DNA of 64,000 bases from an uncultured Pelagibacteraceae bacterium (lineage in GTDB: Bacteria; Pseudomonadota; Alphaproteobacteria; Pelagibacterales; AG-422-B15). Each line of letters opens with the position of its first letter. Position 1 is the first letter of the stretch. A program made the translations under genes and the position numbers. The notes beneath the pieces are model-generated. The model was given only the letters and a program-made list of their open reading frames with translations. It was not told where the DNA came from and ran no database searches. Where the stretch lies: contig CACCAS010000001.1 of assembly GCA_902544065.1 (NCBI GenBank), positions 66,458 to 130,457 of the forward strand, in the 5' to 3' direction. Shown piece by piece: positions 3,350-52,678 of the stretch.

Positions 3350-3922
3350 TTGAAATTTATTTTAGGCAGCTCATCTCCTAGAAGATTGGAATTGCTATCA
3401 ATTCTTGGGATCAAACCCGATGAAATAATCGCACCAAATATTGACGAGACGATCAACGAAAAGGAATTGCCCTTAGATTACTGTAAACGAATAGCCACTC
3501 AAAAGATGAAGTACTTTGATGGGAAGCATGAAAATATTGTTATTCTTACGGCAGATACTATTGCCTATAGTGGAAGAAGAATAATTGATAAAACAAATGA
3601 TGAAGTTATTGCTAGGAAAAATCTCAATAAATTATCGGGTCGAAGACATCGCGTTTCAACCGTATTGTGCCTAAGAGATACTAAGAATAAAGTCATAAGT
3701 AGGAGTGTCACAACTACAGTCAATTTTAAACTGCTTAATAAAAAAGATATTGATAATTACATCAAAACAAATGAATGGAAAAATGTTTCAGGATCATACA
3801 AAATTCAGGGATTTGCTGAAGTTTTTATCAAGTCAATAAACGGCTCGTATTCAAATGTAGTTGGGTTACCATTGTTTCAAACTAATAACTTACTGGGTTC
3901 GATTGGTTTAATTAAATCATGA
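3350..3922 (+). CDS. maf: Maf-like nucleoside triphosphate pyrophosphatase / septum formation protein
   Basis: 190 aa, TTG start. 'ILGSSSPRRLELL' N-terminus, 'GSYKIQG' and 'NVVGLPL' motifs of the Maf family. Confidence 0.88.
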   Translation: MKFILGSSSPRRLELLSILGIKPDEIIAPNIDETINEKELPLDYCKRIATQKMKYFDGKHENIVILTADTIAYSGRRIIDKTNDEVIARKNLNKLSGRRHRVSTVLCLRDTKNKVISRSVTTTVNFKLLNKKDIDNYIKTNEWKNVSGSYKIQGFAEVFIKSINGSYSNVVGLPLFQTNNLLGSIGLIKS

Positions 3923-4275
3923 GAGAATTAATTTTTATTTACAATGCAAAAAGTGGCATTTTTAATGCCCTCATAGATTGGGGTCATAAAATAATTTCAC
4001 CAAGTACGTATGAATGTCATTTGTGCTCTATCACATATAACAATCGCGGTAAGGAAAAGATTTGGGGTAATTATCTTAAGTCGCTAAAAATAAAGTGCAG
4101 ATTTTATTACATTGACCAACTCGAAGACTTAGAGTTTGTACCTAAGCAAATCAACTTACCATGCGTTTATATTAAAAATGACGATAATTATCAGCTTATG
4201 ATTGATGCTCATGAATTAAATTCATTTAAAAGTGTGCAGGATTTGATAAGCAGACTAAATGAAAAGCTTAATTAA
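3919..4275 (+). CDS. small conserved hypothetical protein with a CxxC motif
   Basis: 118 aa. Start overlaps the maf stop (ATGA). Contains 'YECHLCSITYN'. No family recognised with confidence. Confidence 0.6.
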   Translation: MRELIFIYNAKSGIFNALIDWGHKIISPSTYECHLCSITYNNRGKEKIWGNYLKSLKIKCRFYYIDQLEDLEFVPKQINLPCVYIKNDDNYQLMIDAHELNSFKSVQDLISRLNEKLN

Positions 4276-4344: not shown

Positions 4345-4420
4345 GGCTCGATAGCTCAGTTGGTAGAGCAAAGGACTGAAAATCCTTGTGTCGGTGGTTC
4401 AAATCCACCTCGAGCCACCA
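4345..4420 (+). tRNA. tRNA-Phe (anticodon GAA), CCA encoded
   Basis: 76-nt cloverleaf read by hand: acceptor GGCTCGA/TCGAGCC, D arm GCTC-AGTTGGTA-GAGC, anticodon arm AAGGA-CTGAAAA-TCCTT, T arm GGTGG-TTCAAAT-CCACC, discriminator A, then CCA. Confidence 0.93.
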
Positions 4421-4425
4421 CTTAT

Positions 4426-4502
4426 GCAGCTGTAGCTCAGTTGGTTAGAGCGCCTGGTTGTGGACCAGGAGGTCGGTAGTTCAAGTCTACCCAGCTGTAC
4501 CA
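4426..4502 (+). tRNA. tRNA-His (anticodon GUG), no encoded G-1, discriminator A73, CCA encoded
   Basis: 77-nt cloverleaf: acceptor GCAGCTG/CAGCTGT (G1:U72), D arm GCTC-AGTTGGTTA-GAGC, anticodon arm CCTGG-TTGTGGA-CCAGG, T arm GGTAG-TTCAAGT-CTACC, A73, CCA. The base at -1 (4425) is T. Confidence 0.9.
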
Positions 4503-5686
4503 ACTAATGTTTTTTTTACGGGAAGAGTTAGTACGATTATAAAGAGCAGGATCATTACAAATCCAAAAACTAAATAAAGAAATCCAAACTCACCGCTTAT
4601 TTCATAGCTTCTAGAAATTAGAATTAGGGCTATTGGCCCTACAGAGAATGAAACAATGAATTTTATACCATATACAAGACTTTGATATTTTTCTGGCGAG
4701 AATTTAGCCAGTAATAGATTTTCTGCTGGAAGTATACTTGAATTAAAAGCAACAATCATAAGACTGATAACAATTAACCAATAATTTGATAGACTAACAA
4801 TGAATAAAAGAAGTGTGCCTTGTCCGATGATGCCAATAGCATAAATTACTTTTTCAGAATATTTATCTGTTAAAATACCACCTATGTAGTTCATTAAGCC
4901 GCTTACAATATAAATGGCGGCTACAATATATCCAATCTCAGACGTTGAGAGGTTTAAGCTGTTTGACAGTCTGATATCAATTATTTTAGGCAAACTTGTT
5001 TGAAGAATTTGATATACAAAACTCAAGCATGTAATACTTACAAGCATAATAATTGCAATTTTTAGCATTTGATTTTTTTCTGGATTATCTCGAAATTGTT
5101 CTGATTTAATATTAGTCAATGAAATTTTTCCTGATTTCAAATGATATGAGAGACATAAGCCTGTTAGAATAGAAATTATTCCAGGCAATATAAACGCTGC
5201 TTGCCAATTAATCTGATCAATTAAAATACCAGCAAAAAAAGCTCCCAATCCAATTCCTACGCCTCCAAATATATTATTGAAACCAAGTGCACGTCCTGTT
5301 TCTTTTGATGTATTAACTATCCATGATATTCCTGCAGGGTGATATATTGAGCAAAATAAGCCAAGCAAGGATAGACTAATAAAAAGAGATAATTTATTCC
5401 CACTCAGCCCACAAAGAACCGAACTAATACCTAGACCTAAAAACATTATTGCAATCATTCCTGAACGGCTCCATCGATCACTAATCCATCCAGCTGGTAA
5501 AGATCCTATGCCAACAAGAAGAGACCCAAGAAACCATAGATTTAAAAGCTCGTCATATGAAAATTTCCACTCATCTTCAATCGCAAGTACAATTACAAAG
5601 TAAAATGCAGCAAACATGTGCATCAATAGATGGCCAAGCGCAGCATAAATAACAGTTAATTTTCTAACGTTTTCAGTGATAACCAT
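4487..5686 (-). CDS. MFS-type transporter
   Basis: 399 aa with about 12 hydrophobic segments. 'GWISDRWSRSGM' resembles the MFS loop 2-3 motif. Substrate unknown. Confidence 0.85.
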   Translation of the reverse strand: MVITENVRKLTVIYAALGHLLMHMFAAFYFVIVLAIEDEWKFSYDELLNLWFLGSLLVGIGSLPAGWISDRWSRSGMIAIMFLGLGISSVLCGLSGNKLSLFISLSLLGLFCSIYHPAGISWIVNTSKETGRALGFNNIFGGVGIGLGAFFAGILIDQINWQAAFILPGIISILTGLCLSYHLKSGKISLTNIKSEQFRDNPEKNQMLKIAIIMLVSITCLSFVYQILQTSLPKIIDIRLSNSLNLSTSEIGYIVAAIYIVSGLMNYIGGILTDKYSEKVIYAIGIIGQGTLLLFIVSLSNYWLIVISLMIVAFNSSILPAENLLLAKFSPEKYQSLVYGIKFIVSFSVGPIALILISRSYEISGEFGFLYLVFGFVMILLFIIVLTLPVKKTLVGTAG

Positions 5687-16788: not shown

Positions 16789-17291
16789 TGGTATATAGGC
16801 TTTCTAAATTTTTTTTACTAATATTATTTTTTTTCGCTTTAGATCAAATAAGTAAAAATATAATTATACAACTTTACAACATCGATGTTGAAAATTTAAG
16901 TTCTCAGTTTTTAACCTCAATTAATGAATACGTAAATTTATATTTAATTTGGAATAAAGGCTTCGCCTTTGGATTATTTCAAAATGACATAAGGACTGTA
17001 AATAATATTTATATGATTTTAATGGCTGTAATTATTGTTGTGGTGTTCATTTACGCCTTAACCATTAATAGCAAAGTTTATTATTATGGATTTAGTTTAA
17101 TAATCGGAGGTGCATTAGGCAATCTTTTTGATCGTTATCAGTATGCAGCAGTATTAGATTTTATTGACGTGCATTATAATAATTTCCATTGGTATGTATT
17201 TAATATTGCTGATATAAATATAACTCTTGGATGTATCCTAATAATAATTTTAGAATTGTTTTCAAATAAAAAGAAAAAAAATGAAATATAA
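16788..17291 (+). CDS. lspA: lipoprotein signal peptidase (signal peptidase II)
   Basis: 'GGALGNLFDR' and 'FNIAD' motifs with 4 TM segments. The ATG at 16788 shares one base with the ileS TAA (TAATG). The track's TTG at 16755 would lie inside ileS. Confidence 0.88.
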   Translation: MVYRLSKFFLLILFFFALDQISKNIIIQLYNIDVENLSSQFLTSINEYVNLYLIWNKGFAFGLFQNDIRTVNNIYMILMAVIIVVVFIYALTINSKVYYYGFSLIIGGALGNLFDRYQYAAVLDFIDVHYNNFHWYVFNIADINITLGCILIIILELFSNKKKKNEI

Positions 17292-17943
17292 AATAATCAG
17301 TCATTACTTTCTATTGATAGTTTTTTTTATATTTATTTCTTGTTCTAATAATACAGTAAGAGATTATACTTCACTTAAGCAAAAAGCATTAGAAATACCC
17401 CCTGACTTTGAGTTATCACCCCCAGTTGTAAATGACGACTCTGCAAGTGAAGAGCTACCAAATGAAGAAGTGGTAGAAGAAATTGAAGAAATACTAACAA
17501 GTAATAATAGTGCAATAACTAGCAAAAAGACTGAGAGTTCATCTTTAGAAGATTTCATTGACAGTAATTTTGTTAATGATGAAAAAGAAGAAGTACCAAA
17601 TGAAGTAAACACAAATGACGATACTGAATCCCTAGATGTTTTGGTAAATGACGACTTAGCTGATCAGGCTACTGATGTCGAAAATACAAATGATACAGAA
17701 GAGATGGCTCAAGATGATCAAACCCAAAATAATGACACTCAAGAAACCAATTTTACTGAAGAAAAGTTGCTAGATGAGTTATCAAATATAGATGATATAA
17801 CATCGCTTTCAGAAGAAGAGCAGTTGAAGCCTGAAATTATTGAAGAAGAAGTTTATGACGATCCTACAGTTTACAATGATGACCAAGATTTAAATGATCT
17901 ATTGAACAGAGTGGATGATTTACTCAACTCATATTCAAATTAA
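17281..17943 (+). CDS. acidic lipoprotein (possibly DUF3035-like)
   Basis: 220 aa. Signal peptide plus lipobox 'FISC'. 'LEIPPDFELSPP' recalls the alphaproteobacterial lipoprotein family found after lspA. The remainder is extremely D/E/N-rich. Confidence 0.7.
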   Translation: MKYKIISHYFLLIVFFIFISCSNNTVRDYTSLKQKALEIPPDFELSPPVVNDDSASEELPNEEVVEEIEEILTSNNSAITSKKTESSSLEDFIDSNFVNDEKEEVPNEVNTNDDTESLDVLVNDDLADQATDVENTNDTEEMAQDDQTQNNDTQETNFTEEKLLDELSNIDDITSLSEEEQLKPEIIEEEVYDDPTVYNDDQDLNDLLNRVDDLLNSYSN

Positions 17944-17954
17944 ATATTCTATAA

Positions 17955-18950
17955 ATGTTTAAGTTTTTTAAAGATCCAAAATGGTTTTACTGGGCATATA
18001 TTGGTTCAGCAATTATTTTATCGTCATTATGGATTCAGGTACAAATTGACGTAAAAATTAATGAATGGTTTGGTGAATTTTATGACATGATACAAGAGGC
18101 GTTGTCAGCTCCTAACGTAATTACTATAGAGGAATATTGGGCAAGTCTTTTATCATTTATAACGTTAGCTGGCATGTATGTGGCTGTTGCAGTTCTTGTA
18201 AGTTATTTTACTAATCATTTTCTATTCAGGTGGAGAACCGCAATGGTAGAATGGTATCATTCCGTTTATGACAAAGCCCGCAAAATTGAAGGGGCCTCGC
18301 AGAGAGTTCAAGAAGACACAATTAAATTCTCAAGAATCATGGAGTCCCTTGGAACGAGTTTGATTGAAGCATTAATGATACTAGTTGAATTTATGCCAAT
18401 TTTATTTGGCCTCAGCATTGGAATTCCAATATTTTTCTTTGGCGAATGGGAATATGGTTTAGTTGTAGGGGCGTTGGTGTGGTCAATTGGTGGTACGTTA
18501 TTTTTAATTATTCTTGGTTTAATTTTAAGACTAGTTGGAATTGAATATGATCTTCAAAAACAGGAAGCTGCATATAGAAAAATGTTGGTAATTGCTGAGG
18601 ATGATGAGACTGTAAGGCCAAAAACTCTTGAGGAATTGTTTGATGATGTAAGGCAGATACATTTTTTAAGTTACATAAGATACCTTTACTTTGACATTGG
18701 CCGTGTTGCATTTTTGCAGGCAAACGTTTTATCAGCATATGTATTTTTAGCACCCGCAATCGTTGCAGGTGTTGTTACTCTTGGTGTTATGCAGCAGATA
18801 ATCAGGGCATTTGGCCGAGTAGAGGGATCAATGCAGTATCTTCTAAAAGCATGGCCTACAATAATTGAGCTCGCAAGTGTTTATAAGAGACTAAGAGAGT
18901 TTGAAAGACAAATTGATGAAGTTTTAATTGAAGAGGAAACTCCAGTATAA
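17955..18950 (+). CDS. SbmA/BacA-family inner-membrane peptide transporter
   Basis: 331 aa. Colinear with E. coli SbmA as remembered ('EWFGEFYDMIQEAL', 'FRWRTAMVEWY', 'IEGASQRVQEDTIKFS', 'EAAYRK', 'VYKRLREFE'). Confidence 0.85.
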   Translation: MFKFFKDPKWFYWAYIGSAIILSSLWIQVQIDVKINEWFGEFYDMIQEALSAPNVITIEEYWASLLSFITLAGMYVAVAVLVSYFTNHFLFRWRTAMVEWYHSVYDKARKIEGASQRVQEDTIKFSRIMESLGTSLIEALMILVEFMPILFGLSIGIPIFFFGEWEYGLVVGALVWSIGGTLFLIILGLILRLVGIEYDLQKQEAAYRKMLVIAEDDETVRPKTLEELFDDVRQIHFLSYIRYLYFDIGRVAFLQANVLSAYVFLAPAIVAGVVTLGVMQQIIRAFGRVEGSMQYLLKAWPTIIELASVYKRLREFERQIDEVLIEEETPV

Positions 18951-41567: not shown

Positions 41568-42263
41568 ATGGCTCGTATTACTGTAGAAGATTGTATTAAG
41601 CTTATTAATAATCAGTATGATCTGGTTATCCTCGCAAAGGAAAGAGCAGTTCAATTGGGAAGAGGCGCTACCCCTGCTGTAGATCCTGAAAATGACAAAA
41701 AACCTGTAATTGCCCTTAGAGAAATAAGCGAGTCCAAGATTACAGCTGAAGAGTTAAAAGACAGTATTGTTTCTAAATTGAGGCAAATTCCTGATTATGA
41801 GGAAGAAGAGGAATTAGAAGAAGTTGATAACGATACTTTTAGACAAATGTTCCAGGGCGGTCTGTCTAAATCTGAAATGGAAAAGTCAGCAACACGTAAA
41901 TTTACAGCTAGATCACCTAGAGTTGAAACGAGAGCTAAGCCAGTTGAAGATACGATGAGTGATGTTGAAGAGACACCTATGAGTTCAGCAGTCATAAATG
42001 AAACTCAAGTTCTTAATGAGACTGAGGAAAAATTAGATACTTCAGAAGTTGAAGTTCCAATCACGGATAGTATTGAAACAGTTCATGAGGAAACAACTGA
42101 TCAAGCTATAGATGACCGAATTAAAGAAAATCCATCTTCTGAAGAGGAAAGTATTTCTGCTAGCGATCATATAGAAGATAATAATGAAAATGACGTCATT
42201 AATGTAGAAGAGCTGTCTGAAGTTACATCCGATATTGAAGAAGAGAATATTCCTAAAGAATAA
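41568..42263 (+). CDS. rpoZ: DNA-directed RNA polymerase omega subunit with a long acidic C-terminal extension
   Basis: 231 aa. The N-terminal ~70 aa are canonical omega ('MARITVEDCI...NQYDLVILAKERAVQL...KPVIALREI'). The remaining ~155 aa are E/D/S/T-rich and low in complexity. Confidence 0.85.
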   Translation: MARITVEDCIKLINNQYDLVILAKERAVQLGRGATPAVDPENDKKPVIALREISESKITAEELKDSIVSKLRQIPDYEEEEELEEVDNDTFRQMFQGGLSKSEMEKSATRKFTARSPRVETRAKPVEDTMSDVEETPMSSAVINETQVLNETEEKLDTSEVEVPITDSIETVHEETTDQAIDDRIKENPSSEEESISASDHIEDNNENDVINVEELSEVTSDIEEENIPKE

Positions 42264-42268: not shown

Positions 42269-43399
42269 ATGAATTTTGACTTTTCAGATGATCAAAAGCT
42301 TTTACGCGATCAAGCAAGAAAGTTTTTACAAGATAAATGTGACCGTAAGTCAGTAAGGAGTATCCTAGAAAATCATAAGCAGAGCTATAATGCTAAGTTA
42401 TGGTCTCAAATTTCTGAATTAGGTTGGACGGGTACAGCAATACCTGAAGAATATGGCGGACTTGGTTTAGGCATGTTAGAATTGTGCGTAATAGCTGAAG
42501 AGCTAGGTAGAGCTCTTGCACCCACACCATTTTCTTCTTCGATATATATTTTTGCCGAATTTTTAAAATCGTATGGTACGGATGAACAAAAGAAAAAATA
42601 TTTACCACTCATTGCATCTGGCGAAAAAATTGGAACATTTGCTTTATCTGAAACTAATGGGAAACCAAAACCGAATAATATTAAGACGCAATACGTTTTG
42701 GGTAAATTAAATGGATCTAAAAATCCGGTTTCAGATGGGGAGTCAGCAGATTATATCATTGTTGCAGCAAATTCTGACGGTAATTCGAATTATAATTCAC
42801 TCTCTCTTTATATTATTGATAGAAATGATCCAGGTGTAAATATTTCGAATTTAGAAACCATCGATCCTACAAGACCTGCTTGTACAGTAGATTTAGAAAA
42901 TGTTGCCTGTGAAAGACTCGGAGATGAAGGAATTGGATGGGAGATGATTGATAATATTTTTAATAGAGCAGCTGTTTTATTTTCATTCGAGCAAGTGGGT
43001 GGGGCGCAAGTTTCACTTGATGAAGCAAAAAAATATTCACTTGAGCGATTCGCTTTTGGAAAGCAAATAGGTGCATTTCAAGCTCTAAAGCATAAGATGG
43101 CAGATATGTACGTCAAAATTGAATTAGCAAGATCTAACGCTTATTATGGTGCCTGGGCGTTAAGTACAGACTCAAATGAGCTACCAATTGCCGCTGCAGG
43201 CGCAAGGGTTAGTGCCTCTGAAGCATACAATTTCGCATCTCAGGAAAATATTCAAATTCATGGAGGTGTTGGTTTTACTTGGGAATATGATTGCCACTTG
43301 TTTTATCGTAGATCTAAACTACTTTCTTTAAATATTGGCAGTATTCGTCAGTGGAAAGAAAATTTAATTTCAAATCTTGAAAAAAGGAATATAGTTTAA
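42269..43399 (+). CDS. acyl-CoA dehydrogenase family protein lacking both canonical catalytic-Glu positions (putative non-catalytic partner)
   Basis: 376 aa with an ACAD fold ('EEYGGLGLG', 'QIHGGVGFTWEYD'). The IVD-type site reads 'IFNRAAV' (Asn for Glu). The MCAD-type site reads 'LNIGS' (Ile for Glu). Confidence 0.85.
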   Translation: MNFDFSDDQKLLRDQARKFLQDKCDRKSVRSILENHKQSYNAKLWSQISELGWTGTAIPEEYGGLGLGMLELCVIAEELGRALAPTPFSSSIYIFAEFLKSYGTDEQKKKYLPLIASGEKIGTFALSETNGKPKPNNIKTQYVLGKLNGSKNPVSDGESADYIIVAANSDGNSNYNSLSLYIIDRNDPGVNISNLETIDPTRPACTVDLENVACERLGDEGIGWEMIDNIFNRAAVLFSFEQVGGAQVSLDEAKKYSLERFAFGKQIGAFQALKHKMADMYVKIELARSNAYYGAWALSTDSNELPIAAAGARVSASEAYNFASQENIQIHGGVGFTWEYDCHLFYRRSKLLSLNIGSIRQWKENLISNLEKRNIV

Positions 43400-43401
43400 A
43401 T

Positions 43402-44685
43402 ATGGACTTTAATGACACACCTCAAGAAGCTGAATTTAGAAAAAAAGTAAGAGCTTTTCTAGAAGCGAATGCGGAAAAAAGATCTACTCTATCTTCAAAG
43501 CCAAATGGCGACTCGGGATCGTCTATTTCAAGCGCTGGTGCACCAGAAACTGTAAAAGGTGAAGATGCGGCAAAGGTAGCGCTAGATAATGCTAAAGAAT
43601 GGCAAAGAAAAAAAGCTGATGCAGGATTTGCTGCTATTTTATGGCCAAAGGAATTCGGAGGCTACGGAGGAACTCCTATAGAGCAAGTTATATATGCTCA
43701 AGAAGAACATGACTATTTTGTTCATTCAGGATATTTTGAAATTGGTATAGGTATGCTTGGACCAACTATGATGGCTTGGGGTAAAGACGAGGATAAAAAA
43801 AGATACCTTCCAAAAATGATCACCGGTGAAGAAATATGGTGCCAATTATTTTCTGAACCCTCAGCAGGATCAGATTTAGCTGGTATAAGAATGAAGGCTG
43901 AAAAAGATGGTGACGAATGGGTACTAAATGGTCAAAAGGTATGGACTTCAGGAGCTCATTTTGCTGATTATGGAATGATTGTAGCACGATCTGACCCTAC
44001 TGCTCTAAAACATAAAGGGCTTACATATTTCTATGTTGATATGAAAACACCAGGAATTGAGGCTAAACCTATTAAACAGATTTCTGGATCAGCTAATTTC
44101 AATGAAGTATTCTTCAATGACGTCCGCATACCTGATAGTCAAAGAATTGGTGCGGAGGGTGATGGGTGGAAAGTATCACTTACTACTCTTATGAATGAAA
44201 GATTAGCGGTAGGAGATCCTCCTGGTTTAGATTTTGATCAAATTTTTGAAGCCTCTAAAGAGATAGAAGTTGAAGATGGTCTTGCTGTAAAAAATAGTGA
44301 AGTAAGACAAAAAATGGCTGACTGGTACATTCAGTCGAGGGGATTGCAATATACGAAATACAGGAGTATGACTGCTTTATCAAAAGGCCAAACACCTGGA
44401 CCAGAGCTCTCAATAAGCAAGTTAGTCACAGCATCGAAGATGCAAGATGTATCATCTTATGCACTGGATTTGATGGACATGTCAGGTATGGTTCATCAAG
44501 ATAAAAATCCGGTTCTTAAAAACTTATTCCAAAACGGTTATTTTTTCTCAGCTGCCATGAGAATTGCTGGTGGCACCGATGAAGTTTTAAGAAATATTAT
44601 TGCAGAGAGAGTCTTAGGTTTACCGCAAGATGAAAGATCAGATAAAAAACTGCCTTTCAATGAGTTGCCCTCAGGTAAAAACTAA
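43402..44685 (+). CDS. acyl-CoA dehydrogenase (IVD/LCAD-type catalytic Glu)
   Basis: 427 aa. 'WCQLFSEPSAGSDLAG', 'NGQKVWTSGA', 'LMNERLAVG' (Glu at the IVD position), 'IAGGTDEVLRNIIAE' (Gly at the MCAD position). Starts 2 nt after the upstream ACAD. Confidence 0.88.
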   Translation: MDFNDTPQEAEFRKKVRAFLEANAEKRSTLSSKPNGDSGSSISSAGAPETVKGEDAAKVALDNAKEWQRKKADAGFAAILWPKEFGGYGGTPIEQVIYAQEEHDYFVHSGYFEIGIGMLGPTMMAWGKDEDKKRYLPKMITGEEIWCQLFSEPSAGSDLAGIRMKAEKDGDEWVLNGQKVWTSGAHFADYGMIVARSDPTALKHKGLTYFYVDMKTPGIEAKPIKQISGSANFNEVFFNDVRIPDSQRIGAEGDGWKVSLTTLMNERLAVGDPPGLDFDQIFEASKEIEVEDGLAVKNSEVRQKMADWYIQSRGLQYTKYRSMTALSKGQTPGPELSISKLVTASKMQDVSSYALDLMDMSGMVHQDKNPVLKNLFQNGYFFSAAMRIAGGTDEVLRNIIAERVLGLPQDERSDKKLPFNELPSGKN

Positions 44686-47050: not shown

Positions 47051-47090
47051 TTTAAGTGTTGCGTGTTTTTAAAGAATATAACATATTAAT

Positions 47091-47248
47091 CTTGTTGGTT
47101 CACGTAAAGTGAATAACAGGGAATGAGGTTAAAATCCTCAGCTGTACCCGCAACTGTAACTCAGGAGTTTGAATACAGATGCCACTGATTTAATCGGGAA
47201 GGCGTATTTGAATTTAGACGGAGAAGTCAGGAGACCTACCAACAAAGA
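47091..47248 (+). promoter_or_regulatory. cobalamin (B12) riboswitch
   Basis: Conserved blocks read directly: 'AACAGGGAA' (47115-47123), 'GGTTAAAATCC' (47127-47137), 'GCTGTACCCGCAACTGTAA' (47141-47159), 'GCCACTG' (47181-47187), 'CGGGAAGGC' (47195-47203), and the B12 box 'AGTCAGGAGACCTACC' (47225-47240). P1 closes with TTGTTGGT (47092-47099) / ACCAACAA (47238-47245). It is 126 nt upstream of the TonB-dependent receptor. Confidence 0.88.
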
Positions 47249-47373
47249 CGCAGTCATCCTCAGGTAATCGGGATAATTATTTGGACTTATAACTCAAGAG
47301 TAGTGGTGGCTTAATTATAACCGCTACGAATCAATATGATCGTTGCATATTTTGATTGAAAGGGTGACTTCAT

Positions 47374-49611
47374 ATGCCTAAATTTTCTATAATACTATTT
47401 TTTTACTTTTCAATTTTGATGCATTCATTTGCTGATGAACAAACAATCTGGATTACACCAAATGAAACTGACTATTCAAGATTATCAACTGGTTTAGCTG
47501 GTTCAAATATTACAATAATAAGTGAGAATGAAATCAAAAACTTCAAGAATTTAACTCTTCCAGAAATAGTTGCAACACACTCAGGTGTTCAACTAAGGAA
47601 TCTATTTTCAAACGTAAACTCTACACAAACAACGTTAGATCTAAGAGGATTTGGAGAGTCAGCAAAAAACAATAATTTAATTTTACTTAATGGCCGTCGA
47701 CTGAACGACATAGATATGGCAGGAGTAAATTTCTCAATGGTTCCAATAAAATCCATAAAAAGAATAGAATTAATTCGCGGTGGATCAGCTTCTACAATTT
47801 ATGGTGATGGAGCAACTGGTGGGGCAATCAACATTGTTACAAAAAACGTTTTAGACACATCAATGATTCTTGAGTTTGGAACAAGATCTCATAACACCTA
47901 TTCTACTAATCTCTCGCTTCCAATCAAAATTGACAATACTTCAGGCATACTATTCTCTGCATCTATTAATGAAAGTGACACATATAGGCAGCGTTCAGAT
48001 TTTGAAAGCGAAAGTTATTTAATGAGATATAATATTAAAAAAGAAAATTATGACTTTCATCTAGATATTAATAACAGTTTATATGAACAATTACTTCCTG
48101 GGTCTAGGTATAAAGCAAATTTGAATGGATATACACCATCAGATCCTGTTGCCTGTAATCTATTGTCTGATAGCAGAACAGCTTTTCAAAAAGGAACATG
48201 GTATACTCTGACAGGACAATGTTTAACTAGGGACCCTGATTATGCGAAGTTTGATATCACAGCAATTACTGCTGGTACAAATATCGAATTAGATGATTTA
48301 ACTAATATTTTCATTAGTATTTCAAATAGAGATAAAGAACAGAAAGCCTTTGTTGCAAGTGGAACATCAACTTTAGGGAATCCAACCTCAGAGGATACCT
48401 TTAACCTTTACGAGTTAGAAACAGATTATTTATCACTTAGAACTGATCATAAAACATTTTTAGCTGATCAATTGACAACTTTAAGTATTGGGGTTGATTT
48501 TCAAGAAACTGATTACTCAAAAAAATCAAGTCAAAGTTCTTCACTTCAATTTGGAGGATTTGTTAACGCATCACAAGAAAGTAGAGCAATATATTCACAG
48601 AATTCTATAAATTTCAATGAAGGAAACTCAATTATGTCATTTGGAGCTAGGCTCGAAAATGCTGATTATAAAGTGAGAGAGTCATTTGATAAATCCGTGA
48701 GTAAGTATGCATCTAGTTCAGCGCGTGATCCGTATCAAACAAAAATGTCAAATCACGCTGTCAATATAGGCATTGAACACATTTTAGATAATCAAAATAG
48801 ATTATTTGCAAAATATGCTGAAGCTTTCCGAACTCCAGATTTAGACTCGAGAAATGAAACGTGTGTTAAAAGTTACAGTTACCCCTGTAGTCATCCGGCT
48901 TTTTTTCTTAAAGATCAAAAATCTGACGAGACTGAGATTGGCATTCGTCACAAACAAAATAATTTTAGTTTAAATGCAAGTATATTTGAGATGAATACAG
49001 TAAATGAAATAAGGTATATACCTGAAAAAAATAATACTAATCTAGATCCCATTAAGCGTAAGGGTCTTAATCTAGATTTTAATTATAATTTAAACAAAGA
49101 TATAAATATCGTTGGATCGTTTACGTATATTGATGCACATTTCACCTCTGGCTCACTTACTAGAGGATATTTTGAGGGAACCTATGCGGCTAATTCTCAA
49201 ACTGCGATTAGCAAAATGGACAGTAGTAGAAACTTAAATGACGGAACTTATAATATTGCCGGACTAAAAGTACCCCTGGTATCTGAATATATTTATAACT
49301 TAGGTTTAAATTATAATATGCCACGAGAAATATTATTTAAAATAAATATGTCATTTGTTGACGATATGTTTGTTTCAAATGATCAAGAAAATATAGAGCC
49401 TACCATACCAAGTTACTATTTATTTGATTTAAGCCTTAGTTCTGAAAATGAATATGGAACGTGGTCTTTTGGTATAGACAATATATTTAATACTAGTTAT
49501 TACAATTTTGCAGTTGCAAGTACTGACCATGTAGATCAGAGCTATGGGAGACAAAACATGTACCCAATGGAAAGAAGAAGTATCTTTTTAGATTATTCCT
49601 ATGAATTCTAG
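47374..49611 (+). CDS. TonB-dependent outer-membrane receptor (BtuB-like by context)
   Basis: 745 aa. Signal peptide, TonB-box-like 'EQTIWITP', plug domain ('RGFGESAKNNNLILLNGRRLND', 'IELIRGGSASTIYGDGATGGAINIVTK'), and a C-terminal '...YSYEF' terminal Phe. Lies downstream of the B12 riboswitch. Confidence 0.9.
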   Translation: MPKFSIILFFYFSILMHSFADEQTIWITPNETDYSRLSTGLAGSNITIISENEIKNFKNLTLPEIVATHSGVQLRNLFSNVNSTQTTLDLRGFGESAKNNNLILLNGRRLNDIDMAGVNFSMVPIKSIKRIELIRGGSASTIYGDGATGGAINIVTKNVLDTSMILEFGTRSHNTYSTNLSLPIKIDNTSGILFSASINESDTYRQRSDFESESYLMRYNIKKENYDFHLDINNSLYEQLLPGSRYKANLNGYTPSDPVACNLLSDSRTAFQKGTWYTLTGQCLTRDPDYAKFDITAITAGTNIELDDLTNIFISISNRDKEQKAFVASGTSTLGNPTSEDTFNLYELETDYLSLRTDHKTFLADQLTTLSIGVDFQETDYSKKSSQSSSLQFGGFVNASQESRAIYSQNSINFNEGNSIMSFGARLENADYKVRESFDKSVSKYASSSARDPYQTKMSNHAVNIGIEHILDNQNRLFAKYAEAFRTPDLDSRNETCVKSYSYPCSHPAFFLKDQKSDETEIGIRHKQNNFSLNASIFEMNTVNEIRYIPEKNNTNLDPIKRKGLNLDFNYNLNKDINIVGSFTYIDAHFTSGSLTRGYFEGTYAANSQTAISKMDSSRNLNDGTYNIAGLKVPLVSEYIYNLGLNYNMPREILFKINMSFVDDMFVSNDQENIEPTIPSYYLFDLSLSSENEYGTWSFGIDNIFNTSYYNFAVASTDHVDQSYGRQNMYPMERRSIFLDYSYEF

Positions 49612-49666
49612 AATAGGTTTTGTCATAAATGCGTTGATATTAATAAATTGTTGAGTATCTTTAAGT

Positions 49667-50188
49667 ATGATGAAATTAAATAAAAATAATTACTATGTCA
49701 TCATAGGCATTATCGTATTACTCGCCATGGCTAGATTGCTTCCACATCCACCAAACTTCACTCCAATTCTTGGTATGGCTGTATTTTCTGGAGCAATAAT
49801 AAGTAGAAGATTGATTGCCTATTTAATTCCTCTAGCTGCTATGTTTCTTAGTGACTTATATTTAGGCTTACATTCCAGCATGCCTATTATTTATTTCTCT
49901 TTAGCAGTCTGTGTTTTGATTGGAACATTCATTAAGGCAAGAGTAACTATTTTGAATTCTTTTTTAAGTATCAGTTTAGGGGTATTAGTATTCTTCTTAA
50001 TCACAAATTTTATGGTTTGGTATGGATCAGGAATGTATGAGTATAGTATTTCAGGTCTTATGACTTGTTACTTTATGGGACTGCCTTTTGTGCAAAATAC
50101 ATTTATTTCAAGTATTTTGTATGGAATGGGAGCTTTCTTAATCTACGATATAATCAATAAACGTATGATTTTTGGCAATAATGCTTAA
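49667..50188 (+). CDS. small polytopic membrane protein, candidate ECF-S/BtuM-like corrinoid transporter
   Basis: 173 aa with 5-6 hydrophobic helices. Contains 'LLPHPPNFTPILGMAVF'. Sits 55 nt downstream of the riboswitch-controlled receptor on the same strand. The function is a context-based hypothesis. Confidence 0.6.
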   Translation: MMKLNKNNYYVIIGIIVLLAMARLLPHPPNFTPILGMAVFSGAIISRRLIAYLIPLAAMFLSDLYLGLHSSMPIIYFSLAVCVLIGTFIKARVTILNSFLSISLGVLVFFLITNFMVWYGSGMYEYSISGLMTCYFMGLPFVQNTFISSILYGMGAFLIYDIINKRMIFGNNA

Positions 50189-50254
50189 AAAATAGAGTTG
50201 AAATCAGGTTTTTAAGGCATTATATATTTTTAAATTTAAATATTAGGTGATTCC

Positions 50255-51457
50255 ATGGATACAGCATTTTCAAATGAAGATTTAAAATTTCAATCAGACG
50301 TAAGAGAATTTATCTCAAACAATTATCCAAAAGAGCTGAAAGATTCAATTGGTACTAAAAGGAAAACTGGCAAAGAGTTGTCCCGTGATGACTTAATGTC
50401 ATGGCATAAAATTCTAGGCAAACACAATGGATGGTCAGCCCCGGGATGGCCTAAACAATATGGAGGAGCAGAATTTTCTCCAACACAAAAATATATTTTT
50501 GAGCAAGAATGTGCTCGAGCTGAATGCCAATACATCATGCCTTTTGGCGTAAACATGGTTGGCCCGGTTATTTATACATTTGGCAATGACGAACAAAAAG
50601 CAAAACATCTTCCAGGAATTCTTAGTGGAGATGTATTTTGGTGCCAGGGATATTCAGAGCCAGGGTCAGGATCTGATTTAGCATCTCTTAAAACAAGCGC
50701 AGTCAAAGAAGGTGACCATTATATCGTTAACGGTCAAAAAACTTGGACTACTTTAGCACAGCACGCAGACTGGATTTTTTGTCTAGTAAGAACAAACCCA
50801 GATGCGGAAAAACCTCAACAGGGAATCTCATTTCTTTTGATTGATATGAAAACTCCAGGCATTACTGTTCGTCCAATTAAGCTTATGGACGGATCTCACG
50901 AAGTTAATGAAACATGGTTTGACAATGTAAAAGTTCCGGTTGAGAATCTGATTGGGCAAGAAAACATGGGTTGGACCTACGCAAAATTTTTACTAGCCCA
51001 TGAAAGATCAGGTATTGCTGGTGTCGCGAGGTCCAAAAAAGCCTTAGAAAGAATAAAGCAAATTGCGAGCGCTGAAATGTCTTATGGTGAACCGTTAATA
51101 CAAGATCCTGCATTTAAATCTAAAATAGCAAACGCTGAACTTGAATTAAATTCTTTAGAATATACTGAGCTTAGAACTTTAGCGAAAGATTCAGCGGGAA
51201 AAGGTCCTGGTCCAGAGTCTTCACTCTTGAAAATTAAGGGTACTGATATTCAACAAATGGTTACTGAACTTGCGATGGAAGCAGTTGGATATTATGCAAA
51301 CCCGCACTTGGGCACTACATTAAGTAATGAATATGTAGGACCAGATTATGCAACTAATTTATCAGGATCATACTTCAATTTCAGAAAAGCATCTATTTAT
51401 GGTGGTTCTAATGAAATTCAGAGAAATATTATCGCTAAGATGGTTCTTGGATTATAA
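50255..51457 (+). CDS. acyl-CoA dehydrogenase (IVD/LCAD-type catalytic Glu)
   Basis: 400 aa. 'WCQGYSEPGSGSDLAS', 'NGQKTWTT', 'LLAHERSGIAG' (Glu at the IVD position), 'IYGGSNEIQRNIIAK' (Gly at the MCAD position). Confidence 0.88.
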   Translation: MDTAFSNEDLKFQSDVREFISNNYPKELKDSIGTKRKTGKELSRDDLMSWHKILGKHNGWSAPGWPKQYGGAEFSPTQKYIFEQECARAECQYIMPFGVNMVGPVIYTFGNDEQKAKHLPGILSGDVFWCQGYSEPGSGSDLASLKTSAVKEGDHYIVNGQKTWTTLAQHADWIFCLVRTNPDAEKPQQGISFLLIDMKTPGITVRPIKLMDGSHEVNETWFDNVKVPVENLIGQENMGWTYAKFLLAHERSGIAGVARSKKALERIKQIASAEMSYGEPLIQDPAFKSKIANAELELNSLEYTELRTLAKDSAGKGPGPESSLLKIKGTDIQQMVTELAMEAVGYYANPHLGTTLSNEYVGPDYATNLSGSYFNFRKASIYGGSNEIQRNIIAKMVLGL

Positions 51458-51499
51458 AATTTTTTGACAATCTAGCTGTCAATATATAGGACTATCTCC

Positions 51500-52678
51500 A
51501 TGAATTTTGATTATACAGAAGAACAAACTCTTCTTGAAAACATGGTTACTTCATTTGTAAGAGATGACTATGACTGGGATACAAGATGCTCAATTGTTAA
51601 AACTGAAGAAGGATGGAAAGAAGAGAACTGGAAGAAGTTTGCTGAACTAGGTCTTTTGGGAGTTCCCTTTGAAGAGGATCATGGTGGATTGGGTGGTGAA
51701 GCCACTGACATAATGATTGTAATGGAGCAATTTGGAAAAGGCCTTGTTGTAGAGCCTTACATGCCTTCAATAATTCTAGCTGGAGGTCTCATCTCTAAAC
51801 TGGGGTCAGCAGATCAAAAAAATTCAATTATTCCAGAAATTATTTCAGGTAATAAACGTTATGTTTTTGCATACGCAGAACCTCAAAGTAGGTTTGATTT
51901 ATTTGATGTCAAATGTTCAGCAAATCTTGATGGTGATAATTATATTATTAATGGATTTAAGTCAGTAGTCTTTGGTGCTGGCATGGCAACTCACTTAATT
52001 ATTTCAGCAAGGACTGAAGGAGATCAAAGGTCAAAGTCGGGAATTACATTATTTCTGGTTGATATAAAATCTGACGGTATTACTTTACAGAATTATCCTA
52101 CAATAGATGAGTACAGAGCATCAGAAGTTGTTATTGAAAACTTAAGTGTGTCAAAAGAAAATATTTTAGGCGAGTTGGGCAACTCTTATGAAGCAATTGA
52201 AGAACAAGTAGATTTATCTACAATTGCAATATGCTCGGAAGCTGTGGGAATTTTACAAGTACTTAAAGACTCTACGAATGATTATTGTAAAAATAGAAAA
52301 CAGTTTGGACAGCCAATTAGTGCAAATCAAGCGATACAGCACCGTCTTGTCGATATGATGATTGAATATGAGCAAGCAAAATCAATTCTCTATATGGCAA
52401 TTACAGCTGACCTTAGCAATCCAAACGAAAGAAGAAAAGCAGCATCTGCTGCAAAAGCTCGTATCGGAAAAGCTATTAAATTTGTTGGAGAAAATGCTAT
52501 TCAATTACACGGTGGTATGGGTGTTGTTGACGAGTATATGATTAGTCATTTTTTTAAAAGAGCAACAATGATCGGTATTCTGTTCGGCAATGTTGATTTC
52601 CACATGAAAAGATATATTGATTTGACACAATCTGATATTCAGTCAATAAACGAAGACGACGGAATTAATCTTTCTTAG
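51500..52678 (+). CDS. acyl-CoA dehydrogenase family protein lacking both canonical catalytic-Glu positions (putative non-catalytic partner)
   Basis: 392 aa with an ACAD fold ('EEDHGGLGG', 'QLHGGMGVVDEY'). The IVD site reads 'VDLSTIA' (Ser for Glu). The MCAD site reads 'ILFGNVD' (Phe for Glu). Confidence 0.85.
   Translation: MNFDYTEEQTLLENMVTSFVRDDYDWDTRCSIVKTEEGWKEENWKKFAELGLLGVPFEEDHGGLGGEATDIMIVMEQFGKGLVVEPYMPSIILAGGLISKLGSADQKNSIIPEIISGNKRYVFAYAEPQSRFDLFDVKCSANLDGDNYIINGFKSVVFGAGMATHLIISARTEGDQRSKSGITLFLVDIKSDGITLQNYPTIDEYRASEVVIENLSVSKENILGELGNSYEAIEEQVDLSTIAICSEAVGILQVLKDSTNDYCKNRKQFGQPISANQAIQHRLVDMMIEYEQAKSILYMAITADLSNPNERRKAASAAKARIGKAIKFVGENAIQLHGGMGVVDEYMISHFFKRATMIGILFGNVDFHMKRYIDLTQSDIQSINEDDGINLS

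What the first reader, a model, noticed from the sequence alone, without database searches (positions are those of the whole stretch)
47091..49611. Cobalamin riboswitch controlling a TonB-dependent receptor in an otherwise streamlined genome region
All core B12-riboswitch blocks, including the B12 box, are readable at 47091-47248. They are followed by a 745-aa TonB-dependent receptor with a plug domain and a terminal Phe. If the organism is Pelagibacterales-like, as its composition and synteny suggest, this is unusual. From memory, such genomes are described as poor in TonB-dependent transporters and B12-dependent enzymes. Between the aptamer and the ATG (47249-47373) I see a hairpin, GTAGTGG (47311-47317) / CCGCTAC (47332-47338), but no T-tract. 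Control is therefore more likely translational, through sequestration of the AGGGTG Shine-Dalgarno at 47361-47366.
Basis: partly seen in the sequence, partly recalled or inferred. Interest (0 to 1): 0.55.

Follow-up and report, generated by a model that had tools for sequence, protein, structure and literature searches.

The report
SAR11 vitamin B12 uptake operon
A genuine vitamin-B12-sensing RNA switch controls an outer-membrane receptor and a small uncharacterised membrane protein in an uncultured SAR11-type marine bacterium, which suggests that part of this very abundant group, usually described as not needing B12, scavenges it with a partly new kind of transporter.

Summary
Rfam finds a full-length cobalamin riboswitch at 47079-47257 (114 bits; threshold 31.5). 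It is followed by a 745-aa TonB-dependent receptor with a plug domain, a TonB-box-like motif and a terminal Phe.

- **A second gene.** The next gene (49667-50188) encodes a DUF6580 membrane protein. It always accompanies the receptor in 7 genome loci and about 24 metagenome loci labelled or resembling Pelagibacterales.
- **A wider B12 link.** DUF6580 genes in 4 of 5 unrelated lineages also sit behind cobalamin riboswitches. The predicted fold is that of ECF S-components, the fold of the B12 carriers CbrT and BtuM.
- **The receptor type.** It is not a BtuB-family member by sequence. Some sister loci carry a BtuB-type receptor in the same slot.

Control is probably translational. A conserved two-part P13 hairpin (42 leaders, compensatory changes) competes with structures that bury the Shine-Dalgarno and start codon. 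Whether B12 switches expression off or on cannot be computed.

No TonB system or B12-dependent enzyme lies in the 64 kb, and the rest of the genome was out of reach.

The riboswitch-receptor pair is ordinary. The SAR11 setting and the candidate transporter family are new.

The parts
47079..47257 (+). Cobalamin riboswitch aptamer (RF00174), full length, with the peripheral P6 extension. P1 is 47092-98 / 47239-45.
   Evidence: 114.3 bits, E = 6.8e-28; compensatory changes in P1, P4 and the P6-extension helices across 7 orthologous leaders; coordinates.
47145..47150 (+). Aptamer loop L5 (UACCCG). CCCG is invariant in the 7 orthologous leaders of A1 and is complementary to the L13 loop CGGG, so it is the presumed kissing-loop partner.
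   Evidence: Structure line; invariant columns. The complementarity is read directly from the sequence. There is no covariation because both sides are invariant.
47224..47237 (+). B12 box (AAGTCAGGAGACCT).
   Evidence: (invariant in all orthologues).
47246..47251 (+). J1/13 linker (AGACGC) between P1 and the platform hairpin.
47252..47260 (+). 5' strand of the outer helix of the two-part P13 (AGUCAUCCU). In this window it is also complementary to the SD region, so it can act as an anti-SD.
   Evidence: pairs with 47302-11 in 42 of 42 leaders, with compensatory changes (GC to AU in 8 leaders; UA to AU in 11); the MFE structure pairs it with AGGGUGAC.
47261..47283 (+). Inner P13 hairpin: stem CAGGUAAU (47261-68) / AUUAUUUG (47276-83), loop L13 CGGGAUA (47269-75).
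   Evidence: 91.7% of cells paired; compensatory GC to AU in 13 leaders at one pair and 10 cells at another.
47302..47311 (+). 3' strand of the outer helix (AGUGGUGGCU, U47304 bulged). It mimics the SD and acts as a decoy or anti-sequestor strand.
   Evidence: forcing this helix raises SD/AUG accessibility in 42 of 42 leaders.
47300..47327 (+). It overlaps the outer-helix 3' strand, so the two are mutually exclusive. It forms in the SD-sequestered fold.
   Evidence: 94-95% of cells paired, but present only in the 23 long leaders, with a single compensatory cell; it appears in the structures with the SD sequestered; coordinates.
47361..47376 (+). Shine-Dalgarno AGGGUG(AC) 47361-68 and start codon 47374-76.
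   Evidence: mean unpaired probability over -14..+3 is 0.63 with the outer helix forced, 0.45 with only inner P13 forced and 0.26 with the outer 5' strand held unpaired.
47374..49611 (+). TonB-dependent outer-membrane receptor, 745 aa. It has a signal peptide, a TonB-box-like QTIWITP, a plug, a barrel and a C-terminal Phe. It is not of the BtuB sequence family.
   Evidence: 100% identical to P0262 on a 295-kb NCBI contig.
49667..50188 (+). DUF6580 (PF20221) membrane protein, 173 aa, with an ECF S-component-like fold. It is the candidate inner-membrane corrinoid carrier. It lies 55 nt after the receptor, with no terminator-like site in the spacer.
   Evidence: 4e-43; always follows the receptor; riboswitch-linked in other phyla; fold; weak link to CbrT; no terminator-like site in the 49612-49666 spacer.

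Best explanation
Window 47079-50188 (+) is a two-gene corrinoid (vitamin B12) uptake operon of an uncultured Pelagibacterales (SAR11-type) bacterium. SHOWN: (1) A full-length cobalamin riboswitch precedes a 745-aa TonB-dependent receptor and a 173-aa DUF6580 membrane protein. (2) This trio is conserved in synteny across divergent SAR11-type lineages. (3) DUF6580 genes in unrelated phyla are also riboswitch-linked and sit next to BtuB-type receptors. (4) The DUF6580 model has the ECF S-component fold. INFERRED: (1) The receptor brings a corrinoid across the outer membrane with energy from a TonB system encoded elsewhere. (2) DUF6580 carries it across the inner membrane as a small S-component-like carrier. 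In that role it would be a functional analogue of BtuM or CbrT and would stand in for BtuCDF, which accompanies the homologous receptor in Bradyrhizobium-type genomes. REGULATION: Control acts on translation initiation. The aptamer is followed by a conserved two-part P13 hairpin. Its loop (CGGG) can kiss aptamer loop L5 (CCCG). Its outer helix (47252-60 with 47302-11) holds the leader in a form that leaves the SD and AUG exposed. When that helix is open, the SD and AUG are buried. In short-leader relatives, the freed internal-loop segment pairs with the spacer between the SD and the AUG. I infer that B12 binding and loop-loop docking favour the buried form, giving an OFF switch as in other B12 uptake genes. 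The direction of the switch is not shown.
For: Riboswitch: (114.3 bits). Orthologues: (26 of 26 loci, 104-125 bits). Receptor: (plug, barrel, conserved TonB-box-like motif, terminal Phe). Synteny PGM <- | -> riboswitch, TBDR, DUF6580, pimC/D-like in L003, L005, L006, L007 at 37-52% receptor identity. Metagenome loci: every locus with at least 3 kb downstream carries a receptor and then DUF6580. Receptor slot filled by a BtuB-type 592-aa protein in four sister loci (L025, L048, L052, L059); L052's scores TIGR01779 at 236 bits, full length. Bradyrhizobium-type homologues (about 30% identity) have the riboswitch plus a divergent FecCD/ABC/PBP cassette and no DUF6580. DUF6580 in other lineages: RF00174 heads the same-strand cluster in 4 of 5 independent lineages, two of them with BtuB-like receptors. 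Fold: AF2 pLDDT 88.6, pTM 0.83. Seven of the eight top Foldseek hits are ECF S-components, with probability up to 0.98 and TM up to 0.68. The only PDB sequence hit of the family profile is the CbrT chain of 6FNP (E = 0.054; hhalign 51%; the chain fragment scores as PF12822). Platform: the two-part P13 is 93.7% paired in 42 leaders with 42 compensatory cells; 0 of 500 shuffles reach this and slid controls give 28-54%. SD/AUG accessibility is higher with the outer helix formed in 42 of 42 leaders (short 0.74 against 0.25; long 0.54 against 0.35). No terminator.
Against: No tonB/exbBD, btuCDF, adenosyltransferase or B12-dependent enzyme lies in the 64 kb. Published surveys say SAR11 lack MetH, MetE and MtgBCDE (PMC12478193) and neither need nor make B12 (PMC8552899), so the cellular use of the imported corrinoid is unknown. 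The receptor fails the BtuB equivalog models (67.9 bits against a 599.7 cut-off; only the plug aligns), and its barrel scores best against haem/haemoglobin-type receptor models. The link from DUF6580 to S-components is weak by sequence, and Foldseek E-values are only 0.09-1. DUF6580 lacks BtuM's invariant cysteine. Neither BtuM nor CbrT appears among the 50 Foldseek matches listed. There are no functional data. By simple thermodynamics the buried form is more stable with or without ligand. The usual logic, in which the kissing loop stabilises P13, would predict an ON switch rather than an OFF switch.
Confidence: 0.7

Rival explanations
1. Same parts, opposite sign. B12 binding stabilises the whole two-part P13 hairpin through the L5-L13 kissing loop, which keeps the anti-sequestor helix closed and the SD exposed. 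This would be a B12-activated (ON) uptake operon.
For: In characterised cobalamin riboswitches the ligand stabilises P13 through the kissing loop (established knowledge). Here the state with P13 fully formed is the one with an accessible SD/AUG in 42 of 42 leaders. The 3' strand of P13 does not contain the SD.
Against: Nutrient-uptake genes behind cobalamin riboswitches are, as far as is known, repressed by the ligand. The kissing loop needs only the inner hairpin, which survives in both states. A 17-bp coaxial P13 attached to P1 by a 6-nt linker may be too long to place L13 on L5 unless the outer helix opens; this is a geometric inference and was not modelled.
Confidence: 0.2
2. DUF6580 is not the inner-membrane carrier. 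It could be a corrinoid-processing or accessory membrane protein (for example decyanation, remodelling, or docking for a binding protein), with transport done by another system such as the SbmA/BacA-like protein at 17955-18950 or an ABC transporter elsewhere in the genome.
For: In other phyla DUF6580 is flanked by a Dph6-like ATP pyrophosphatase and a BtuF-like periplasmic binding protein, which suggests a multi-protein salvage pathway. BtuM itself has decyanase activity (PMC6072759). Mycobacterial BacA imports cobalamin (PMC10960864), and a SbmA/BacA homologue lies in the window.
Against: In the SAR11 loci the riboswitch is directly followed by only the receptor and DUF6580. A streamlined genome is unlikely to keep an accessory without a carrier. 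The S-component fold is a substrate-binding and translocating fold. The SbmA/BacA gene is not linked to the riboswitch.
Confidence: 0.25
3. The cargo is not cobalamin itself but another tetrapyrrole or an incomplete corrinoid (cobinamide, pseudocobalamin, alpha-ribazole-lacking forms, or haem). The riboswitch would then report only the cell's B12 status.
For: The receptor barrel scores best with the haem/haemoglobin/transferrin receptor models (TIGR01786 86.7 bits, TIGR01785 71.2 bits), and BtuB models align only to the plug. Known B12 carriers also accept cobinamide (PMC5997447).
Against: The homologous receptor clade in Bradyrhizobium-type genomes is also riboswitch-controlled. Sister SAR11-type loci carry a BtuB-type receptor in the same slot behind the same platform. 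No corrinoid salvage genes (cobS/T/U) are seen nearby.
Confidence: 0.2
4. The locus is a decaying relic or a recent horizontal acquisition with no function in this lineage.
For: No B12-dependent function lies in the window, and cultured P. ubique strains have no TBDTs (PMC3400609).
Against: Both ORFs are intact in every locus. DUF6580 is 72-99% identical across lineages whose receptors have diverged to 35-38%. The genomic position is constant. The aptamer and platform are under strong constraint, with compensatory changes. GC content matches the surroundings.
Confidence: 0.03

Closest known systems
E. coli btuB leader (AdoCbl riboswitch) with BtuB-TonB and BtuCDF
   Same: A cobalamin riboswitch in the 5' leader of a TonB-dependent outer-membrane receptor gene. 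Control acts on translation through sequestration of the ribosome-binding site. The receptor has a plug, a barrel and a TonB box.
   Different: The receptor is 745 aa, not about 600, and fails the BtuB equivalog HMMs. No BtuCDF is present; a DUF6580 gene follows instead. The platform is a two-part P13 with an anti-sequestor helix, not a hairpin that contains the RBS.
BtuM of Thiobacillus denitrificans (solitary S-component B12 transporter/decyanase, PDB 6FFV; PMC6072759)
   Same: A small (about 20 kDa) six-helix membrane protein of the S-component fold. It is found in Gram-negative bacteria that have an outer-membrane B12 receptor but no BtuCDF, and was identified through co-localisation with btuB.
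   Different: No detectable sequence similarity. BtuM's invariant cobalt-ligating cysteine has no counterpart: DUF6580 invariant residues are R23, D63, Y76, Y124 and F141, with near-invariant H27. It is a different Pfam family. Function is untested.
CbrT, the B12-specific S-component of ECF-CbrT (Lactobacillus delbrueckii, PDB 6FNP; PMC5997447)
   Same: It is the only solved structure that the DUF6580 profile touches by sequence. The alignment pairs the motifs PHPPNFTP / IDIPNVQP and FLSDLxLGF / VISNIFLGF. It has the same fold class and binds cobalamin and cobinamide.
   Different: The similarity is marginal (E = 0.054; hhalign 51%). CbrT needs an ECF module (EcfT, EcfA, EcfA'), and none is seen next to DUF6580 in any locus examined.
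Riboswitch-btuB pair of OM43 (Methylophilaceae H5P1; PMC9004378)
   Same: Another streamlined, low-GC marine bacterioplankter. Its only cobalamin riboswitch lies upstream of a B12 receptor gene.
   Different: It belongs to a different class of bacteria. The paper describes a btuB gene, and no DUF6580 partner is reported there.
Kissing-loop cobalamin riboswitches (env8 HyCbl and Thermoanaerobacter AdoCbl structures; recalled from memory, not read here)
   Same: An L5-L13 loop-loop interaction couples the aptamer to a 3' regulatory hairpin, P13.
   Different: In those RNAs the 3' strand of P13 carries the RBS. Here P13 is extended by a second helix, with a 16-18 nt one-sided internal loop in the long leaders such as this window and about 11-13 nt in the short ones. 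The RBS lies 8-60 nt further downstream, so a relay of alternative pairings is needed.

Membership tests
Cobalamin riboswitch (Rfam RF00174) | Covariance-model score at or above the curated gathering score, over the full model | tested here: met
   114.3 bits against 31.5; model positions 1-189 of 189; E = 6.8e-28.
Cobalamin riboswitch (Rfam RF00174) | Conserved core sequence blocks, including the B12 box | tested here: met
   GCCACTG 47181-87 and AAGTCAGGAGACCT 47224-37. Both are invariant in 7 orthologues.
Cobalamin riboswitch (Rfam RF00174) | Helices maintained by compensatory change in relatives | tested here: met
   RNAalifold on 7 leaders gives 17 pairs with changes on both sides in P1, P4 and the P6 extension.
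Cobalamin riboswitch (Rfam RF00174) | L5-L13 kissing loop linking the aptamer to the expression platform | tested here: inconclusive
   L5 CCCG (47147-50) and L13 CGGG (47269-72) are complementary. However, L5 is invariant in the 7 leaders of A1 and L13 is nearly so in all 42, so there is no covariation. In the L005-type lineage L13 is CGGU, leaving only 3 pairs.
Cobalamin riboswitch (Rfam RF00174) | Binds a cobamide and changes gene expression | not testable with these tools
   Needs in-line probing or ITC and a reporter assay.
BtuB (TonB-dependent vitamin B12 receptor; TIGR01779 / NF007926) | Plug domain plus TonB-dependent beta-barrel, TonB box and C-terminal aromatic residue | tested here: met
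   Pfam Plug and barrel. QTIWITP after the signal peptide is conserved as xIWITP / EILINP in 20 orthologues, and the terminal F is present in all.
BtuB (TonB-dependent vitamin B12 receptor; TIGR01779 / NF007926) | Full-length match to the BtuB equivalog model above its cut-off | tested here: not met
   TIGR01779 67.9 bits (cut-off 599.7) and NF007926 54 bits (cut-off 836). Both align only to residues 22-181, the plug. The best PDB hits are also plug-only. By contrast, the L052-type receptor aligns full-length at 236 bits.
BtuB (TonB-dependent vitamin B12 receptor; TIGR01779 / NF007926) | Under cobalamin-riboswitch control | tested here: met
ECF S-component superfamily, including solitary BtuM and CbrT (for DUF6580) | Six-helix S-component fold | tested here: met
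   AF2 model pLDDT 88.6, pTM 0.83. Seven of the eight top Foldseek PDB hits are S-components (PanT, FolT, RibU, ThiT, 4huq_S) with probability 0.82-0.98 and TM 0.43-0.68. The E-values are weak, at 0.09-0.6.
ECF S-component superfamily, including solitary BtuM and CbrT (for DUF6580) | Sequence membership in a described S-component family (PF12822, PF07155, BtuM family) | tested here: not met
   At E <= 10, Pfam reports only PF20221. NCBIfam reports nothing. The profile against PDB gives only 6fnp_A at E = 0.054, and hhalign gives 51%.
ECF S-component superfamily, including solitary BtuM and CbrT (for DUF6580) | BtuM's invariant cobalt-ligating cysteine | tested here: not met
   No invariant Cys among 54 diverse DUF6580 members. 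C134 is about 90% conserved in one alignment only.
ECF S-component superfamily, including solitary BtuM and CbrT (for DUF6580) | Genomic association with an outer-membrane B12 receptor and B12 regulon, in the absence of BtuCDF | tested here: met
   All SAR11-type loci. Four of five distant lineages. No FecCD or ABC cassette in the SAR11 flanks, unlike L008 and L010. Absence genome-wide was not tested.
ECF S-component superfamily, including solitary BtuM and CbrT (for DUF6580) | Works without an ECF module (solitary) and transports cobalamin | not testable with these tools
   Needs the whole genome (ecfT, ecfA) and transport or complementation assays.
Pelagibacterales (SAR11) as source organism | Closest genomic relatives belong to the order | tested here: met
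   L001 is the Pelagibacteraceae SAG AG-918-D16 (77% receptor identity) and L002 is AG-333-C14 (71%). All named homologues above 34% identity are Pelagibacterales or Pelagibacteraceae. This rests on labels only. No marker-gene phylogeny was run and the subclade is undetermined.

The most novel reading that the evidence does not exclude
DUF6580 defines a large, so far uncharacterised family of inner-membrane corrinoid carriers: 4,472 clusters at 50% identity, present in many phyla. It would be a third kind of small S-component-type B12 importer beside CbrT and BtuM. Its conserved, riboswitch-controlled pairing with a receptor in many uncultured Pelagibacterales lineages would mean that a substantial part of SAR11 consumes B12 or a related cobamide. 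That contradicts the working assumption that SAR11 neither needs nor takes up B12, and it would change marine B12 budgets.
Probability: 0.45. Interest if true: 0.75.

Novelty: new variant of a known kind. Interest (0 to 1): 0.6.

Why it matters
B12 is a scarce, traded vitamin that shapes marine plankton communities. SAR11 is the most abundant heterotroph lineage and is usually left out of the B12 demand side. A 2022 field study stated that it is unknown whether SAR11 btuB is regulated by B12 (PMC9296465). This locus answers that at the sequence level: the receptor gene carries a strongly conserved cobalamin riboswitch.

The finding also makes two questions directly testable. The first is which SAR11 lineages use B12 and for what. 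The second is whether DUF6580, a widespread family with no assigned function, is the missing inner-membrane B12 carrier in the many Gram-negative bacteria that have an outer-membrane receptor but no BtuCDF. The E. coli complementation assay already used for BtuM and CbrT could test DUF6580.

The two-part P13 platform is a compact natural example of a relay-type translational switch, and 42 sequence variants are available for analysis.

Tried and rejected
1. My first guess was that a 33% GC window rich in acyl-CoA dehydrogenases and carrying a TBDR came from SAR86 rather than SAR11. I rejected this because the nearest contigs and all named homologues are Pelagibacteraceae or Pelagibacterales.
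2. DUF6580 = BtuM: rejected. There is no sequence hit to any BtuM chain and no invariant Cys.
5. Platform AUCCUCAG (47256-63) competing with the identical 3' strand of aptamer helix P4 (47134-41): this holds only in this lineage, because P4 differs in the others. It is probably coincidence.
6. The exact-sequence look-up of the receptor initially failed. The cluster listing later showed an identical protein, P0262, on a 295-kb NCBI contig, but no look-ups remained to read more of that contig.
7. Literature: 'DUF6580' gives 0 papers. 'BtuN' is a PATRIC label for a transporter next to btuB in Rhodocyclus, and I could not establish whether it is DUF6580. No paper links SAR11, btuB and a riboswitch for SAR11 itself.
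8. L015, one distant DUF6580 locus, has no riboswitch even at E <= 1.
9. A genome-wide search for tonB/exbBD, metH, nrdJ, mutAB, btuR and ecfT was not possible.
10. The direction of the switch (ON or OFF) cannot be derived from nested-structure thermodynamics, because the kissing loop is not modelled.
11. Negative control: the DUF6580 profile against a TBDR gives hhalign probability 0.2%.


Full report

Yes. An Rfam scan of the whole window gives a single riboswitch hit: RF00174 (Cobalamin) at 47079-47257 on the + strand. It scores 114.3 bits against a gathering score of 31.5 (E = 6.8e-28) and covers the full model.
- P1 is TTGTTGG 47092-98 pairing with CCAACAA 47239-45.
- The conserved GCCACTG lies at 47181-87 and the B12 box AAGTCAGGAGACCT at 47224-37.
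- The downstream ORF 47374-49611 encodes 745 aa with Pfam Plug and TonB-dependent barrel domains. It has a signal peptide followed by DEQTIWITPNE and ends in ...YSYEF.
- No terminator-like site lies in the leader.

**2. Organism and conservation**

GC content is about 33% throughout, with no compositional break at the locus. The window holds densely packed housekeeping genes (hisD/S/Z/G, groES/EL, ileS, lspA, purD, xseA, lpxK, kdtA, msbA, glmU/S, nadE, gltX) and several acyl-CoA dehydrogenase pairs.

The receptor is 100% identical to a protein on a 295,017-nt NCBI contig. Six of ten other window proteins looked up also match that contig exactly.

The nearest genome loci are two single-cell genomes labelled Pelagibacteraceae: AG-918-D16 at 77% receptor identity and AG-333-C14 at 71%. 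Every named homologue down to 34% identity is labelled Pelagibacterales or Pelagibacteraceae. The taxon assignment therefore rests on labels. I did not determine the subclade.

In four further contigs, whose receptors are only 37-52% identical, the gene order is the same: phosphoglucomutase (divergent), then receptor, DUF6580 and a pimC/pimD-like acyl-CoA dehydrogenase pair. All six genome loci with upstream sequence carry the full-length riboswitch at 104-123 bits.

The near-invariant sequence 3' of the aptamer served as a search pattern and recovered 51 marine metagenome contigs.
- Every contig with at least 3 kb downstream encodes a receptor and then DUF6580.
- All 20 of 20 tested with enough upstream sequence carry the aptamer at 105-125 bits.

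The locus is therefore old, widespread and under selection in this group. It is not a relic.

**3. The receptor**

It is a bona fide TonB-dependent transporter but not a BtuB-family member by sequence.
- The BtuB equivalog models align only to the plug (TIGR01779, 67.9 bits against a cut-off of 599.7).
- The whole protein scores best with the haem/haemoglobin/transferrin-type models.
- PDB hits are plug-only.

Three observations still tie it to corrinoids.
- Homologues at about 30% identity in Bradyrhizobium-type genomes are also preceded by RF00174. They sit beside a divergent FecCD/ABC/periplasmic-binding cassette, which is the BtuCDF type of arrangement.
- In four SAR11-type metagenome loci, the same riboswitch platform and the same DUF6580 partner flank a different, 592-aa receptor. 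The one scanned, L052's, aligns full-length to the BtuB model at 236 bits, its best family.
- A TonB-box-like strand (xIWITP / EILINP) and the terminal Phe are conserved in 20 orthologues.

Receptor divergence is decoupled from that of DUF6580. For example, L028 is 38% identical for the receptor but 81% for DUF6580. This suggests receptor replacement or diversifying selection.

**4.

The gene 49667-50188 starts 55 nt after the receptor stop, with no terminator-like site in the spacer. It encodes a 173-aa protein matching PF20221 (4e-43).

An exhaustive search finds 4,472 clusters at 50% identity in this family. The SAR11 form is a separate branch, with its nearest outside relative at 45%. Family-wide conserved residues are R23, D63, Y76, Y124 and F141, plus near-invariant P26, H27, N30, P33, N114 and W118. 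They form the motifs RLxPHPPNFTP and FLSDLxLGFH.

I sampled five independent distant lineages. In four, RF00174 heads the same-strand gene cluster containing DUF6580, and two of these have BtuB-like receptors. The fifth has no riboswitch, even in a permissive search. From general knowledge, genomes hold only a handful of cobalamin riboswitches, so this enrichment is far beyond chance.

An AlphaFold2 model built on 59 sequences is confident (pLDDT 88.6, pTM 0.83). Seven of its eight best Foldseek matches in the PDB are ECF-transporter S-components (PanT, FolT, RibU, ThiT and others), with probability up to 0.98 and TM up to 0.68, although E-values are only 0.09-0.6.

The only solved structure that the family profile touches by sequence is chain A of 6FNP (E = 0.054). 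That chain fragment scores as an ECF S-component (PF12822). 6FNP is the vitamin-B12 transporter ECF-CbrT (PMC5997447). hhalign aligns the two DUF6580 signature motifs to it at 51% probability.

BtuM is the known solitary S-component B12 importer of Gram-negative bacteria that lack BtuCDF (PMC6072759). DUF6580 shows no detectable sequence similarity to it and lacks its invariant cysteine.

My inference is that DUF6580 is an S-component-type inner-membrane corrinoid carrier. It would work like BtuM or CbrT without being a member of either family. No paper in the searchable library mentions DUF6580.

**5. How the switch probably works**

The 35 nt after the aptamer are almost invariant across all leaders. 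They form an inner hairpin: 47261-68 pairing with 47276-83, with the loop CGGGAUA. The loop's CGGG complements the invariant CCCG of aptamer loop L5 (47147-50). This is the canonical L5-L13 kissing-loop arrangement, but it is untestable by covariation because both sides are invariant.

The hairpin is extended by an outer helix, 47252-60 pairing with 47302-11, across a one-sided internal loop. On 42 unique leaders the two-part hairpin is 93.7% paired, with 42 compensatory cells in four pairs. None of 500 shuffles reaches this, and register-shifted controls give 28-54%.

It is present only in the 23 long leaders, with a single compensatory cell.

Constrained folding shows that forcing the outer helix leaves positions -14 to +3 more accessible than letting it open. 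This holds in 42 of 42 leaders: short leaders 0.74 against 0.25, long leaders 0.54 against 0.35.
- In short leaders, the freed internal-loop segment ((A/U)AUUUGUU) pairs with the spacer between the SD and the AUG.

The outer helix is therefore an anti-sequestor. The ligand's effect on it is not computable. I favour an OFF switch because this is an uptake operon and because the kissing loop needs only the inner hairpin. A 17-bp coaxial stack on a 6-nt linker may also have to open for the loops to dock. The opposite reading, in which the ligand stabilises the whole hairpin and turns expression ON, remains possible at about 0.2.

**6. What is missing**

The 64 kb contains none of the following: TonB, ExbB, ExbD, BtuCDF, an ECF module, a corrinoid adenosyltransferase or a B12-dependent enzyme. 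I could not read the rest of the genome.

The literature is split. Some papers say SAR11 neither needs nor makes B12 (PMC8552899) and lacks MetH, MetE and MtgBCDE (PMC12478193), and cultured P. ubique strains have no TBDTs (PMC3400609). Another calls SAR11 B12-auxotrophic and notes that regulation of its btuB by B12 is unknown (PMC9296465). The present locus settles the regulatory point at the sequence level but not the physiological one.

**7. Comparison and verdict**

A riboswitch in front of an outer-membrane B12 receptor is the archetypal arrangement and is ordinary in itself. A comparable pair is reported for the streamlined OM43 clade (PMC9004378). Three things are new:
- its conserved presence across uncultured Pelagibacterales;
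- a receptor outside the BtuB sequence family, interchangeable with a BtuB type in the same slot;
- the constant DUF6580 partner, whose fold, remote similarity to CbrT and riboswitch linkage across phyla make it a strong candidate for a new family of B12 carriers.

The two-part P13 relay is a variant platform. I rate the finding a new variant of a known kind, with interest 0.6.

Noticed in passing
L012-L019 (e.g. L016: 2962-7526; L013: 1879-8686): Outside SAR11, DUF6580 sits in a recurring module: cobalamin riboswitch, then a BtuB-like receptor or an unknown 550-714 aa protein, then a Dph6-like ATP pyrophosphatase (PF01902/PF28410), then DUF6580, then a BtuF-like periplasmic binding protein. 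CobN, CbiM, ExbB and NikR/NicO genes lie nearby in some loci. The role of an ATP pyrophosphatase in a B12 regulon is unexplained.
   Followed up: partly
L020-L070, e.g. L028, L030, L038 (receptor 35-38%, DUF6580 78-81% identity to the window); L025, L048, L052, L059: Receptor and DUF6580 divergence are decoupled, and four loci carry a BtuB-type 592-aa receptor in place of the 745-aa type, behind the same platform. This suggests receptor swapping or strong diversifying selection on the surface protein, possibly from phage pressure.
   Followed up: partly
window 17955-18950 (+): An SbmA/BacA-family inner-membrane protein (PF05992, 3e-140). Mycobacterial BacA imports cobalamin (PMC10960864), so this is a possible alternative inner-membrane route. 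It is not linked to the riboswitch.
   Followed up: no
window 41568-42263 (+); also L003 4274-4891 and L007 4286-4942: The rpoZ-like ORF is 231 aa, but the omega/Rpb6 domain covers only residues 8-59. A long C-terminal extension with no family match is conserved in length (205-218 aa) in relatives.
   Followed up: no
window 42269-44685 and 50255-52678 (+): Pairs of acyl-CoA dehydrogenase genes flank the uptake operon on both sides and are conserved in synteny in all SAR11-type loci. The downstream pair resembles pimeloyl-CoA dehydrogenase PimC/PimD (498 and 376 bits, both below cut-off). No terminator-like site was found between DUF6580 and the first of them (50188-50255), so read-through is possible.
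   Followed up: no
window 17281-17943 (+) and 3919-4275 (+): Two conserved-looking ORFs (220 and 118 aa) have no Pfam family even at E <= 1.
   Followed up: partly
window 47134-47141 and 47256-47263 (+): The octamer ATCCTCAG occurs twice: as the 3' strand of aptamer helix P4 and again in the platform anti-SD strand. The platform copy could in principle invade P4. P4 differs in the other lineages, so this is probably coincidence.
   Followed up: partly
window 4345-4417 and 4426-4499 (+): Two adjacent tRNA genes (75.6 and 71.9 bits). The second overlaps the 3' end of the MFS transporter ORF called on the opposite strand (4487-5686).
   Followed up: no
L005 10496-11425 and L006 5786-6715 (-): Some sister lineages have a 309-aa S-methyltransferase-domain gene (PF02574) inserted after the acyl-CoA dehydrogenase pair. 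It is likely the B12-independent betaine-homocysteine methyltransferase discussed for SAR11 in PMC12478193. It is absent from the window.
   Followed up: no
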